The translations under genes were made by a program, and so were the position numbers. Positions 17,690 through 54,353 of a stretch of DNA of 64,000 nucleotides are shown one piece after another. The first letter of the stretch is position 1. Each line of letters starts with the position of its first letter. The notes under the pieces are model-generated. The model did not search any database. It saw only the letters and a program-made list of their open reading frames with translations, and was not told the DNA's origin. This stretch comes from Octopus vulgaris (taxonomy: Eukaryota): NCBI GenBank assembly GCA_951406725.2, contig OX597820.1, positions 64,046,001-64,110,000 of the forward strand. Direction: 5' to 3'.

Positions 17690-18680
17690 ATGAGTTGTTT
17701 AAGTGTAGGTAGTATAAATGTTCGTGGCCTGGGGTCGCTCTGGAAGCAGGTTCGCTCGCTCAATGACCTCAGGTAACTATCTATGGATATGAAAGCCGTC
17801 AGCGAAACCAATATTTCCAACACATCCGTCTAGCCTCCATTTTTGAAGATTTTGAGATCTACACACCTCTTAGTCGGCCTGGAAGGGGTTTGGGGCAGTG
17901 CTGTTTAGGAAAGGCCTGGACCTCAAAAACAGTCTATCTTACTGGACACGGAATGTAACTTGGTGGTCCTGGATGTAAGCAACACCGAAGGTTGTGCATT
18001 CAACCATGGGCGAGTCAACCAGGTTTATTTAGACGTTTGTGGGGTTTCCAGAGGATGTCGCTCTCTTTAGTTCTAGTGGGCGACTGGCACGCCATTTTGG
18101 ATGTACGCTTGGATAGTGTGGGGCAAGCCGTTAGGAGAGTGGGGTGCAAAAGCCTCACAAACCTGCCCAGTCGTTTCTAATTGGTTGATAGTTACCGACT
18201 GGACTCTCATTTGAGACAATGTGGACATGAGAACCGGGTTTTCCAGATCGTATTTAGATAAGATATTTTGTAGGACAGTAGATAGAGGTAGCACTTCTGT
18301 CCACTAGGTTGTCCACTATTGAAAGTCGTCACCTACACAGACCATAAATTTGTAATTTGCTCGGTCGACAAAGATAGGATCCAAAAGCTAAGCCCAGGGT
18401 ACTGGAAACTGTACACATCTTTCCAGGCGCGTGAAGCGTTCAGAAACTGAGTTAGTGAGTTAGTCCTTCGGAAGTTGGCAGGCGCAATCGTCAACAGCCG
18501 TTGGCGGATAACCATGAAAAGGGCTATTAGAGTAGAGGCAGTAGCATTTAGCGAATAATAATTTTACAAGAATCTAGGATAGAGGAAGAGCTGGTTAGGA
18601 AGTTAGAAGAGGCAGTTAGGAGAGTCCTGTCCAAGATGTGTGCAGGGTGACGAGACTGTCCTGCACGCCTGTGTCCAGCA
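17690..18680 (+). pseudogene. Tx1/L1-clade ORF2 remnant: APE endonuclease joined to the C-terminal zinc finger, RT deleted
   Basis: MSCLSVGSINVRGLG...SETN, LVGDWHAILD, SYLDKIF, YTDHKFV...PGYWKL, then directly CPRCVQGDETVLHA. There are many stops and frameshifts. The upstream ~16.4-17.6 kb is probably its decayed ORF1/5' region. Confidence 0.8.
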
Positions 18681-32472: not shown

Positions 32473-34638
32473 TATTTCATATAAATTTGCCATAAAGGCA
32501 TTACAAAGAGTAGCTGCGGTATGGACATATACATTGTTGAGGTGAATGATGAAATAGGGATGACAATGATGAGAGAAGGCAAAAACGCCCGCCGATTTTC
32601 TTCTTCTCTAAAACATTCTTCCTCTTTTTTAAAACAAAATAAACAAAGCGAGGTATTGAACTTCTCACAATAGTTTTTACAGTTTTTGGGGACTTAATAG
32701 TCCATTACAAATATTAAAATGCAAAAAATATTCAATATACAATCAACACTAGTTCATTTACAAATGAGGGGCTGAGACTCTTACACATTATAACACTGAG
32801 GCTTCTCAACTTCTTGTCAATTTTCCACATCATAATCGCTTGTGTCCGTGTACTCCGCCATAACACATGCTTCGTTTAAAATCACGGTAGGGTCCGATTT
32901 GGCGTTACCTGGCCACGAGCGATATTCCTCTTTTAGTCCATCCAGCCTCATAAACGGGAGCAACGTTATGACCTCCACAGCTATCTGCGGAGGCCATTCG
33001 GGGTACTTTGTGAAGACCAAAGGTATTCTCCCGTAGTGTTCTTTCACTATCTTTTCCACCTCTCCGCCTCTATAAAAGAAGACCAACAGTCTTTCGTCCA
33101 TCGGGTCCGGGTGGGTCAATTTTACCGTTGGCGGCACAATTCCCTCCAATGGGGTTCCCCCTTCCGGTGGCACAACTGACGAGGCTCCATGACACCCCGG
33201 CGTCATTTCTCCGACTGCCGTCAATGTCCCGTTTCACCTCCGCTTCCTCTTTTTTCATCTCGACTGGAGGAGGGTGCGTCTTCTCCGTGACATGGAGATT
33301 CGCCTCCCATCCCTCATCTCCAGGATCCTTCGGTGAGCACCCATTATTGCTCTCGTTCTTTCTTTTGCGTCTCTTCTTTGAGGAGTCCTCCGTCTCTTCG
33401 GCCACTTTCATTCCCTCCTCTATTGAGGTCTCCGTCAACTGCTCCGGGACTTTGCTTTTCCCTTGAAAACAGTTCTTTTTTATATGGCCAGGCTTCAAGC
33501 ACCGATGACACTTGGAGGGGCGTCCCTCAAGAATCACCGGATACTTAGACCCAGCCATTCTCAAAAATTCAGGAAATACCAGACTTTCGGCTCACTGGGT
33601 CCATTGAGTCAAAATAGCTTTTGACCCATCCCAGTTAGCCGCAGGCAGAATATTTACGCTAAGAAGCTTGGTGCTACTGCCACCCAGACCCCGGCGGATA
33701 GTATCTTCTATCCACTGGGGCTCAACTCCGGGTGGCAAGTCGCAAACCCAAGCCCTCGTCAAACTCTTCCCACAATAAGTAGGAAGAAACACAATTTCAT
33801 TACCCTCCAGGGGCTGACTTCCAAATACACGGGCCACTTCTGGAGAGTCAAACAGCAACAACACGGTTGCGTATTTTCCCCCCCCCCCCCGAGTGATAAA
33901 CTTAATCGCTGGCTTAAATTCTGCCAGCTCTCTTTCGATTATATCCTTTCTGAAAACTGCAATGGCGTTGAGGGTCCTAGAGTAGGTTCTCAAAACCACC
34001 GTCTTACTTTCAAGTTCTTTTAACCATTTTTTGGGTGGTCTAATTTTCCACTCCAACAACTTTTCATTGTTATTTCCCATGTTTTTTTTTTAAAGAGTCC
34101 AAAAATACAGTTCTTAAAATATAAAATAATTAAAGAAATAGAAGGAAGAGGAAAAAAAGTTCAAACAAAAGGAAGGAGAGAGAAAAAAAACTAACAGTTC
34201 AATAAAGTTATTTTTTAAATCAAAGATAGAAGAAGAGAGAGCAACAGTTCAAACCACAACAAAGACCATTTGGTACTCCAGGCCCAAATTTTAACACAAT
34301 TGTAAAACAGCTAAAAAATCATTCCAATTTTCTTCTAGGTACTCCTTAACAGGAACAACACTATTTTCAAACAAAAACTGTTTGGCAGGATACGCCCACC
34401 AAACTAATAATTTTCACAATTAAATGAATAATATTTTCACTCAGCCTCAGGCAGACTAGAATCTAGTGAGGATTTTTTGTTTGTAAAAATAATTTGCAAC
34501 ATACAACAGGCCCTCACTAGACGAAAGAAAGTCTTACATTACAGCTGAGTTTCATAAGTCTTCAATTTAAGACGGCTTGAAAAGCGCGTCTTACTGCTTC
34601 AGTGTCAAACACAACTCTGACTCGCACATGCGCAATGA
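32473..34638 (-). mobile_element. ORF1-only (HAL1-like) Tx1/L1-type non-autonomous retrotransposon with a 16-bp TSD
   Basis: TSD ggtaagcaagctactt at 32457-32472 and 34639-34654; one gag-like ORF1 and no recognisable ORF2 motifs. Confidence 0.8.
32817..34080 (-). pseudogene. Gag-like ORF1 (~420 codons) with a CX2CX4HX4C zinc knuckle; one in-frame TGA and one frameshift
   Basis: ORFs 34080-33592 and 33564-33070 are in the same frame, separated by TGA. The knuckle is VILEGRPSKCHRCLKPGHIKKNC. The C-terminus continues in another frame to 32817. Confidence 0.8.
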
Positions 34639-50388: not shown

Positions 50389-50508
50389 AAGAGAGAAGGG
50401 CAAAGAAAGAACGTATTTTGATGCTTGTCATATCCAACATGCTTTATACATTGTCTAACACGAACGACAACAGCTCGGTAGATGTGTCTATATTGGGGGA
50501 CGTTGTCG

Positions 50509-50706
50509 TGTTTTGTGGATTGAAACCTTTCCTTTAGGTTGTTCGAATGTTTTGTGGATTGAAACCTTTCCTTTAGGTTGTTCGAATGTTTTGTAAATTG
50601 AAACCTTTCCTTTAGGTTGTTCGAATGTTTTGTGGATTGAAACCCTTCCTTTAGGTTGTTCGAATGTTTTGTAAATTGAAACCTTTCCTTTAGGTTGTTC
50701 GAATGT
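50509..50706. repeat. 39-bp minisatellite, ~5 copies
   Basis: Unit gtggattgaaacctttcctttaggttgttcgaatgtttt, with gtaaat/gtggat variants. Confidence 0.95.
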
Positions 50707-52541: not shown

Positions 52542-52586
<45 letters not shown>

Positions 52587-52640
52587 GCATTATTAAATCT
52601 CAGAGTGAGATGTAAACAGCAATCGCTCGACAATGTAAAG

Positions 52641-52992
52641 TATAAAAGCCATCTCAATATGGCTAACCACACAGTGGGGTGTTACTGTTGCTTTTTAGCC
52701 CCAGGAGATCATCGTCTCCAGCTGGCTTTAGACACCCTTTCAGTGCACTTGAAGTATTTGCAAAGGGAGGCCATTCCTTCCTCGCAAGCCTGAGTGATAC
52801 GCACGGACCGGTTTCGAGATTATTGTCTCTTATCAAACGTCTCAGGCTTGCGAGGAAGGGTGGCCTCCCTTTGCAAATACTTCAAGAGCACTGAAAGGGT
52901 GTCTAACGCCAGCTGGAGACGATGATCTCCTGGGGCTAAAAAGCTATAATAACACCCACTGTGTGGTTAGCCATATTGAGATGGCTTTTATA
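52641..52992. mobile_element. Fold-back element with ~153-bp near-identical arms (52641-52794 and 52841-52992) and a 46-nt loop
   Basis: tataaaagccatctcaatatggctaaccacacagtgg...cctcgcaagcctgag is mirrored by ctcaggcttgcgagg...ccactgtgtggttagccatattgagatggcttttata; microsatellites lie on both sides. Confidence 0.95.
52803..52840 (-). ncRNA. Minimal hammerhead ribozyme, U3-A8 variant, forming the palindrome loop
   Basis: acg-t-TTGATAA-gaga-caataa-tctc-GAAA-c-cg-GTC-cgt: 4-bp stem II, palindromic ACCGGT stem III, GUC triplet. Confidence 0.7.
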
Positions 52993-53172
52993 TTATATAT
53001 ATATATATATCATAAATTAACTTAATTGCTTTTATTCAAAAATTCTGGGTGAATACTCCTTCCTTGCTCATCCCACTACTTACCTTGTAAGTACATGTCT
53101 TTATATTTCTCCATCATGGAAGACAGACAGAGACACGAGTGTTCAATGTATTTATATCTATTTATCTATCGA

Positions 53173-53262
<90 letters not shown>

Positions 53263-53434
53263 ATAAATATTAGGGAATGAATCCAAAATTACAGGGAAAA
53301 ATCAGATTTAGGGTTAAATCCAATTTTATAGTAAAATATTATATAATATAATTCGAGACAAAACCACTATTTTAAAACCAAACAAGGAAAGACTTAATCA
53401 ATACATAAAATTTTAATATAAATTAAATAAACCG

Positions 53435-53478
53435 CCACTACAAATGTTTCATGTCTGCTACCGACAATCTTCAGGTGG
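53435..53478 (-). ncRNA. Minimal type-I hammerhead ribozyme (mirror copy)
   Basis: Exact reverse complement of 54189-54232. Confidence 0.75.
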
Positions 53479-54188
53479 ATTTTCGATCTAAAAATAGCAA
53501 TATTTTAAAATATAATTTAAAATAATTTAAAATAATAAAATAATAAAATTAACAATCAAAGAATGTAAAAAAATAAAAATATAATCTATATATAATCTAT
53601 ATATAATCTATATATAATCAATATATAATCTAAAATAATCTAAAATAAACCCTATAAACAATTGAATATAAAAACCTATTATAAAAGTTCTCATATTTAA
53701 AAATGTACAAAAACCAAAAAATAACAAGCAAAAAACAAAAACCAAAACCTAAAAACAAAAACAAAAAACAAAAAACAAAAAATAAACTATATATACACAC
53801 ACATGCTCATACACTCAACACATTACTTATTCATACTTCCTCACACACACATACAACACACAATTCATAAACAATATACATATACCCGCTCACACATACA
53901 TATACATACACATACATACAGAACACGATATATACCAATATATAAACACCCACACCCATACAGATAAATAAATTACGCAAACAATCACACACACACACAC
54001 ACACATTTTCACACATACATAAACACTCAAAAGAAAACCGAACAATTCTTAGCACGTGGATATCAAACATTTAAAAAAATACAAACAAACTTAATAAAAC
54101 GACCATGATAAATGATAATTTTATTATTTTATTATTTTAAATTATTTTAAATTATATTTTAAAATATTGCTATTTTTAGATCGAAAAT

Positions 54189-54232
54189 CCACCTGAAGAT
54201 TGTCGGTAGCAGACATGAAACATTTGTAGTGG
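54189..54232 (+). ncRNA. Minimal type-I hammerhead ribozyme
   Basis: ccac-CTGAAGA-t-tgtc-ggtagca-gaca-t-GAAA-c-attt-GTA-gtgg: stem I ccac/gtgg, stem II tgtc/gaca, short stem III, GUA triplet. Confidence 0.78.
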
Positions 54233-54316
54233 CGGTTTATTTAATTTATATTAAAATTTTATGTATTGATTAAGTCTTTCCTTGTTTGGTTTTAAAATAG
54301 TGGTTTTGTCTCGAAT

Positions 54317-54353
<37 letters not shown>

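What the first reader, a model, noticed from the sequence alone, without database searches (positions are those of the whole stretch)
52641..52992. ~150-bp-arm palindrome whose loop is almost entirely a U3-A8 variant hammerhead
Seen: arms differing at only a handful of positions enclose a 46-nt loop, which on the minus strand reads TTGATAA-gaga/tctc-GAAA-C-CG-GTC. Established: C3-G8 is a tertiary pair in HHRs and the U3-A8 double change is a tolerated covariant; palindromic stem III (ACCGGU) is typical of dimer-cleaving PLE ribozymes. Inference: the fold-back arose by template switching immediately upstream of the ribozyme. A transcript would be a long dsRNA hairpin with a potentially self-opening loop, and so a candidate siRNA or ADAR substrate. 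Stem I is short (3 bp) and offset by one nucleotide, so this copy may be inactive.
Basis: partly seen in the sequence, partly recalled or inferred. Interest (0 to 1): 0.72.

Follow-up and report, generated by a model that had tools for sequence, protein, structure and literature searches.

The report
Clipped retrozyme copy, head-to-head insertion
This palindrome is one clipped copy of a common 357-base repeat that carries a hammerhead-ribozyme motif and usually lands as two back-to-back arms, likely pasted by a borrowed Penelope-type enzyme; this copy lacks the ribozyme's first helix and the repeat's likely promoter, so it is likely inert.

Summary
The palindrome and the hammerhead motif are real: 154/152-nt arms, 95% alike, around a 46-nt loop. 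The locus is a truncated copy of a 357-nt tandem repeat family (a non-LTR retrozyme). Intact members carry a full type I hammerhead with covarying stems II and III and a U3-A8 core.

Head-to-head form is the family's normal insertion: 50 of 71 sampled places. In 40 of 41 with both ends intact, one arm has a ~45-nt tail and the other does not, the Penelope footprint. Junctions are scattered (3 of 100 next to the core), so a template switch at the ribozyme is not supported.

This copy lacks the stem I 5' strand (U faces C) and the predicted promoter, and its arms appear to decay neutrally: likely dead. U3-A8 cores and inverted arms are published.

Not found in my searches: a Tx1-like LINE inserts at one site of these repeats (30 of 30 copies), apparently an snRNA-type start. 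This scan noted that targeting and the twin arms before on other DNA of this genome.

The parts
52586..52836 (-). Sense arm of the retrozyme insertion: unit positions 161 to 357, then 1 to 55; 5'-truncated exactly at hammerhead U3
   Evidence: blastn to a natural unit from L007 (L001 1446-1696)
52586..52631 (-). About 46-nt tail present on this arm only (long end, unit positions 10-55)
   Evidence: one tail per insertion in 40 of 41 intact head-to-head places
52641..52794 (-). Part of the sense arm that pairs with the inverted arm (unit positions 203-357)
52795..52805 (-). Stem I 3' strand; its native partner strand is missing here
52806..52836 (-). Hammerhead core with U3-A8, stem II (4 bp, 6-nt loop), palindromic stem III; predicted cut between 52806 and 52805 in intact copies
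52837..52840 (-). 4-nt junction (ACGT) that replaces the native stem I 5' strand; possibly a remnant of the inverted arm after a 4-nt deletion, or untemplated
   Evidence: origin inferred
52841..52992 (+). Inverted, 5'-truncated arm (unit 203 to about 357), ending near the short end without tail
52571..52585 (.). (CA)n/(TA)n flank on the left; target was a TA microsatellite, so a target duplication cannot be read
52993..53010 (.). (TA)n flank on the right

Best explanation
The palindrome is a single, 5'-truncated insertion of a 357-nt hammerhead-bearing tandem repeat (a non-LTR retrozyme), likely pasted by a Penelope-type reverse transcriptase/endonuclease acting in trans, and it is likely an inert copy. 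Shown: family, unit length, truncation points, two fixed 3' ends with one tail per insertion, target duplications in sister copies, loss of stem I and of unit positions 56-160. Inferred: intact units are transcribed from an snRNA-type promoter, self-cleave as dimers, and give multimeric or circular RNA. The enzyme would nick both target strands and prime cDNA from each, one from the short start site and one from the tail start site, on the same RNA or same source locus. The two cDNAs stop at random points and are joined head to head. Here one stopped at U3 and the other 11 nt past the cut site, which leaves the core in the loop by chance. Confidence by step: identity 0.95, copy inactive in cis 0.9, Penelope-type mobilisation 0.85, priming from both strands rather than snap-back 0.65.
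For: Family: 103 matches among 40 scored of 2,878 first-look candidates. Tandem units 357-358 nt apart.

Hammerhead: 54 TTGATAA and 7 TTGACAA among 63 parsed of 69 copies. 95% of cells pair; stem II has two pairs with double changes (8 and 4 sequences); stem III stays palindromic through a double change (8) and a 2-nt insertion (13); slid controls pair 18-51%. Two native copies cofold into the crossed double-hammerhead, -49.3 versus -44.2 kcal/mol.

Penelope footprint: 50 of 80 places head-to-head (71 after removing 9 fragments carried in another repeat); 40 short+tail, 1 short+short, 0 tail+tail, 9 disrupted. Non-simple duplications of 9 nt or more in 17 of 40, against 0 of 120 mismatched controls. 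This matches the described inverted 5'-truncated copy and one-sided tail (PMC8557442) and two RT start sites with both strands extended (PMC11167929). GIY-YIG elements of this genome carry TTGATAA minimal hammerheads.

Inactive copy: U opposite C at 2.1/1.1; only HH9 positions 20-54 match. The ATCAGT motif at -60, shared with U2 genes, lies in the missing part. Arm differences are mostly private.
Against: No autonomous Penelope element sharing this repeat's sequence was found (0 of 30 GIY-YIG loci), so the partner is unnamed. Cleavage, transcription and circularity were not tested. Covariation counts come from related copies and reflect a few subfamily changes, not independent events; 'pairs with change on both sides' did not beat shuffles (203 of 500). 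The native hammerhead scores below Rfam's gathering cut-off. In the window's subfamily stem I has a C-U mismatch and the active register is 2 kcal/mol above the best fold. Both arms share rare variants, which a snap-back also predicts. The promoter reading rests on a 6-nt motif with no statistical control.
Confidence: 0.8

Rival explanations
1. Same element and same dead copy, but the second arm arose by snap-back: the first cDNA (or an antisense template) primed on itself and was copied back to the short end.
For: Arms of one locus are closer (4% here) than the family median (9%) and share rare variants. Self-priming was proposed for Penelope inversions (PMC3846280, passages). A 4-nt palindrome sits at this junction.
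Against: It must explain why one arm nearly always stops at the short site and the other at the tail site (40 of 41), which two priming sites explain directly (PMC11167929). By eye, junction pairs in the unbiased sample do not keep the constant register of the unit's natural stem.
Confidence: 0.22
2. One reading: a fold-back formed at the ribozyme gives a functional long dsRNA with a self-opening loop that feeds siRNA or ADAR pathways.
For: Any read-through transcript would fold into a ~150-bp hairpin. Family sequence occurs in contigs of runs guessed to be RNA. Sister loci such as L004, L009 and L010 keep the whole stem I strand in the loop.
Against: Stem I cannot form; trans dimer is disfavoured by about 15 kcal/mol; junctions are not enriched there; the likely promoter is absent; arms diverge like other copies; no A>G excess among shared variants.
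Confidence: 0.05
3. A fold-back DNA transposon (MITE) with long terminal inverted repeats in a TA site.
For: Long inverted arms, TA-rich flanks, high copy number.
Against: Arm lengths and junctions vary freely, solo and tandem sense copies exist, the two ends differ by a tail, and duplications run about 9-17 nt rather than TA.
Confidence: 0.02

Closest known systems
Metazoan non-LTR retrozymes (Cervera and de la Pena 2020, PMC7229834, passages; Li, Clavereau, Pollet 2026, 10.64898/2026.07.22.740005, part 1 of 5 and passages)
   Same: Protein-free tandem unit of 170-400 nt with a type I hammerhead, short palindromic stem III and rod-like circular fold; mussel units are 350-390 bp; Penelope elements proposed as mobilisers.
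   Different: U3-A8 core; mostly dispersed 0.3-2.5-unit copies in head-to-head form with a one-sided tail. I saw no such insertion footprint described for retrozymes in the parts read. Circular RNA and cleavage were not tested here.
Insertion units of endonuclease-positive Penelope-like elements (PMC8557442, PMC3846280, PMC11167929; passages)
   Same: Partial tandems, inverted 5'-truncated copy, tail at one end only, TA-microsatellite bias, target duplications.
   Different: No ORF; tail about 45 nt against 30-40 described; no matching autonomous element found among 30 GIY-YIG loci.
U3-A8 minimal hammerheads of Schistosoma Cercyon Penelope elements (PMC4209133, parts 1-2 of 4 read)
   Same: U3-A8 core covariation (about 1,300 hits there), predicted dimer cleavage, pairs of motifs on opposite strands 100-700 bp apart.
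   Different: Here the native motif is the extended, HH9-like form with loop 1 and a long stem I. Related subfamilies show C3-G8, U3-G8 and U3-A8 side by side.
Target-specific Tx1 LINEs: Tx1L in Tx1D, Tx1-Mar in Mariner-N4, Keno in U2 (PMC4494074, passages and section 15)
   Same: Applies to the side finding: an APE/RT LINE that inserts at one site of another repeat with a 15-20-nt duplication.
   Different: Target is a hammerhead retrozyme at its predicted start site. That paper's figure legend lists unnamed satellite targets that I could not inspect. Clade membership was not tested by a tree.

Membership tests
Type I hammerhead ribozyme (intact family members) | Core boxes with a 3-8 pair, GAAA and NUH | tested here: met
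   61 of 63 parsed copies have U3/A8; full-length HH9 match E 5.8e-8, under gathering score
Type I hammerhead ribozyme (intact family members) | Stems I-III supported by pairing and covariation | tested here: met
   95% cells paired, double changes in stems II and III; stem I varies on one side only; related sequences limit the statistics
Type I hammerhead ribozyme (intact family members) | Self-cleavage | not testable with these tools
   needs an in vitro assay
Type I hammerhead ribozyme (window copy) | Stem I closing the core (2.1-1.1 pair) and loop 1 | tested here: not met
   U opposite C; native 5' strand absent
Non-LTR retrozyme | Non-coding tandem unit of 170-400 nt with one type I hammerhead per unit | tested here: met
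   357-358-nt units, up to about 2.5 in tandem, e.g. L047
Non-LTR retrozyme | Accumulates as circular RNA | tested here: inconclusive
   contigs join unit end to start, but tandem DNA gives the same and no run is on record as RNA
Penelope-type insertion | Inverted 5'-truncated copy at the 5' end | tested here: met
   50 of 71 places
Penelope-type insertion | Tail at one end only; target duplication; microsatellite bias | tested here: met
   40 of 41; 17 of 40 against 0 of 120 controls
Autonomous Penelope-like element | RT plus GIY-YIG ORF between the repeats | tested here: not met
   no such ORF seen in the family loci scanned for ORFs; no sequence shared with 30 GIY-YIG loci
MITE | Fixed symmetric termini and fixed short duplication | tested here: not met
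Tx1 clade (side finding, LINE family A) | ORF1 zinc knuckle; ORF2 APE, RT, zinc domain; target specificity | tested here: met
   Pfam hits; 30 of 30 at one site
Tx1 clade (side finding, LINE family A) | RT phylogeny within Tx1 | not tested
   no named references were at hand; one search gave mostly unnamed hits

The most novel reading that the evidence does not exclude
These octopus-type retrozymes are circular RNAs made from an snRNA-type promoter and copied by a Penelope enzyme from both nicked target strands at two fixed start sites. A Tx1-like LINE lineage hyperparasitises them by inserting at their transcription start, taking the promoter upstream and keeping an intact hammerhead downstream that could set the LINE RNA's 3' end. 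The family also holds a natural C3-G8, U3-G8, U3-A8 series in the catalytic core.
Probability: 0.45. Interest if true: 0.7.

Novelty: new variant of a known kind. Interest (0 to 1): 0.45.

Why it matters
The locus itself is an ordinary, likely dead copy, and a second head-to-head hammerhead insertion lies 350 bp away. The family matters more. Its footprint gives insertion-level support for the open proposal that Penelope elements mobilise animal retrozymes, and makes the unexplained Penelope inversions testable with a short non-coding template. The site-specific LINE is a target type I did not find in print. The natural core series lets one measure how a catalytic tertiary pair is swapped in evolution.

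Tried and rejected
Whole-window Rfam scan: the 150 rows shown (of 239) were almost all miRNA-family matches below gathering score, mostly at microsatellites, and held no hammerhead.

Search for the autonomous partner: no shared sequence in 30 GIY-YIG loci. Nine solo 64-71-nt ends at unit position 300 were fragments inside another, ORF-less repeat, not a partner.

Expression: no RNA holder listed. Contigs of four guessed-RNA runs cover the unit. No listed contig bridged this copy's private junction or right flank in two guessed-RNA runs and two large runs of unrecorded kind (400 pieces not shown). This is no evidence either way.

Recorded editing: A>G was 1 of 30 shared and 14 of 228 one-arm variants over 70 loci.

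First query for LINE family B hit an LTR-like insert and was uninformative.

An apparent pile-up of long arms ending near the two start sites (7 of 8 short-end arms between unit 20 and 130 stop at 39-71) is post hoc and confounded by length decay; kept as a hint only.

No covariance model was built.

Full report
OBSERVATION. The arms 52641-52794 and 52841-52992 differ by 6 mismatches and 2 single-base gaps around a 46-nt loop. The minus strand carries the core TTGATAA from 52836, a 4-bp stem II, GAA, the palindrome ACCGGT and C17 at 52806. Alone it matches Rfam HH9 only at model positions 20-54 (E 0.13). The genome has 2.8 Gb in 227 contigs. It is likely an octopus (inference; the nearest named relative of a LINE protein from it is from Argonauta). 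No host exon was recognised by eye among the window's 64 long frames; whether the locus is intronic is unknown.

THE FAMILY. A genome search gave 103 matches from 40 scored of 2,878 candidates. Flanks show a tandem unit of 357-358 nt: about 160 nt of linker, the hammerhead, and the arm. Of 69 hammerhead copies, 63 parsed: 54 TTGATAA, 7 TTGACAA, 2 other. In 61 aligned copies (55 distinct; 6 with a truncated stem I strand and 2 rearranged ones left out) 95% of cells pair, against 18-51% in slid controls. Stem II shows double changes in 8 and 4 sequences, and stem III stays palindromic through a double change and a 2-nt insertion. These are few events inherited by subfamilies, and the count of covarying pairs did not beat shuffles (203 of 500). 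An intact copy matches HH9 full length (35.2 bits, E 5.8e-8, gathering 52), and two copies cofold into the crossed dimer. More distant subfamilies have C3-G8 and U3-G8 cores. U3-A8 is published for Schistosoma Penelope hammerheads (PMC4209133, parts 1-2 of 4 read). It is also the core in the 3' repeats of this genome's GIY-YIG elements, which have the cysteine linker described for Neptune and Nematis (PMC8557442).

THE PALINDROME IS THE NORMAL INSERTION FORM. To avoid choosing for shape I took places by an exact 37-nt pattern at the arm's 3' end: 111 matches, 100 listed, 80 places examined (one listed place not fetched). Nine are fragments inside another repeat. Fifty are head-to-head. Of these, 40 have one short end and one end with a ~45-nt tail, 1 has two short ends, none has two tails, and 9 are disrupted. 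Non-simple duplications of 9 nt or more flank 17 of the 40, against 0 of 120 controls; most others lie in TA-rich simple sequence. An earlier, shape-biased set gave 36 of 37. This is the described Penelope footprint (PMC8557442, PMC3846280; passages). In vitro, a Penelope protein extends both target strands from two start sites that bound the tail (PMC11167929; passages). Junctions are scattered: 3 of 100 at unit 150-165, one being this copy. The sample covers one subfamily with intact 3' ends.

THIS COPY. It holds unit 161-357 plus the tail, and an inverted 203-357. The native stem I 5' strand and loop 1 are gone. A trans dimer with an intact partner is about 15 kcal/mol worse than the separate folds. 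Following a lead from earlier scan notes, I compared linker and U2 upstream sequence. ATCAGT lies at about -57 to -59 in 17 of 20 U2 loci (about three sequence groups) and at about -60 from unit position 136 (no statistical control). That part is missing here, so the copy is likely promoterless. The arms differ at 6 of 150 sites, like sister loci, mostly by private changes. On the scale used in PMC13282606 (passages) that is very roughly 5-6 million years. No A>G excess is recorded in family copies. Locus-specific RNA could not be assessed.

MECHANISM. Most likely a Penelope-type enzyme in trans nicked both strands of a TA repeat and primed two cDNAs at the two start sites on a multimeric or circular retrozyme RNA; both stalled and were joined. 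Copies longer than one unit, which cross both the predicted start and the cut site, need such a template (inference). Snap-back remains a rival because the arms share rare variants. The partner enzyme was not identified.

SIDE FINDING. Several loci are split by LINEs at one site, with a duplication of about 15-20 nt covering the start of stem I. Family A is 5.3 kb (zf-CCHC, APE, RT, zf-RVT). Choosing copies by the LINE's own 3' end (best 30 of 40 scored, 175 candidates), 30 of 30 are followed by the same site in sense orientation: 27 align to this unit, 2 to a related hammerhead repeat, and 1 runs into what looks like another LINE start. Three of the 30 were already known to me. The LINE ends are 96-100% alike while the downstream repeats are 70-91% alike to my reference, and 5'-truncated copies also have duplications, so the repeat is the target, not part of the LINE. 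Family B (1.65 kb, ORF1-like only) shows the site in 26 of 30 by eye (3 previously known), 23 of 30 by regex. Two of 20 U2 loci have a LINE-like 3' end at base 1. The window copy has no such insert.

KNOWN OR NEW. Retrozymes (PMC7229834, passages; bioRxiv 10.64898/2026.07.22.740005, part 1 of 5 and passages), U3-A8, dimer cleavage (PMC6765202, passages) and inverted arms are known. Tx1 elements that target other transposons, snRNA genes and unnamed satellites are known (PMC4494074, passages and section 15). I found no report of a LINE targeting retrozymes, nor of octopus retrozymes. The main text of a 2026 Octopus repeat annotation has no mention of ribozymes. The library omits most subscription papers and Repbase, and no supplements were read. 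Earlier scan notes on other DNA of this genome report both the LINE targeting and the twin arms; they are unchecked and not counted as support.

VERDICT. Observation confirmed; interpretation partly supported. The locus is an ordinary, likely inert copy; the family-level footprint and its site-specific LINE carry the interest (0.45).

Noticed in passing
window 53340-53554 and 54113-54327: A second head-to-head element: 215-nt arms, 100% complementary, 558 nt apart, each with a C3-G8 minimal hammerhead (core at 53474 minus and 54193 plus); younger than the finding.
   Followed up: partly
L061, L062, L063, L111-L140: 5.3-kb Tx1-like LINE family A inserted at one site about 25 nt upstream of hammerhead cores, 30 of 30 copies, sense orientation.
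   Followed up: yes
L042, L171-L200, L207: 1.65-kb ORF1-only element B at the same site in at least three related hammerhead repeat families, sometimes stacked with other LINEs.
   Followed up: partly
L115, L120, L122-L125, L127, L133, L139: Related subfamilies with C3-G8 and U3-G8 cores; several C3-G8 ones have a C-A mismatch at the base of stem II.
   Followed up: partly
L174, L178-L181, L193: A related repeat family whose core reads CCGATGA (U4 to C) with an atypical cleavage triplet; activity unknown.
   Followed up: no
L226, L233: Two U2 loci whose upstream region is replaced by a LINE-like 3' end right at base 1.
   Followed up: no
L252, L277, L279, L282, L286, L290-L292, L300: Another ORF-less repeat, starting ATCTTTATATATA (Helitron-like, recalled, not tested), carries a captured 64-71-nt piece of the retrozyme end.
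   Followed up: partly
L087-L110: Abundant GIY-YIG Penelope-like family (open frames up to 781 aa) with TTGATAA minimal hammerheads in the 3' repeat.
   Followed up: partly
window 32800-34100 (minus) and 17700-18620 (plus): Fragments related to LINE family A proteins; the first looks ORF1-only and sits in another repeat, not in a retrozyme.
   Followed up: partly
window 50470-50706: 39-bp minisatellite, about 6 copies.
   Followed up: no
L046 1826-2188: A chimeric copy in which the linker continues into a diverged relative that lacks the hammerhead.
   Followed up: no
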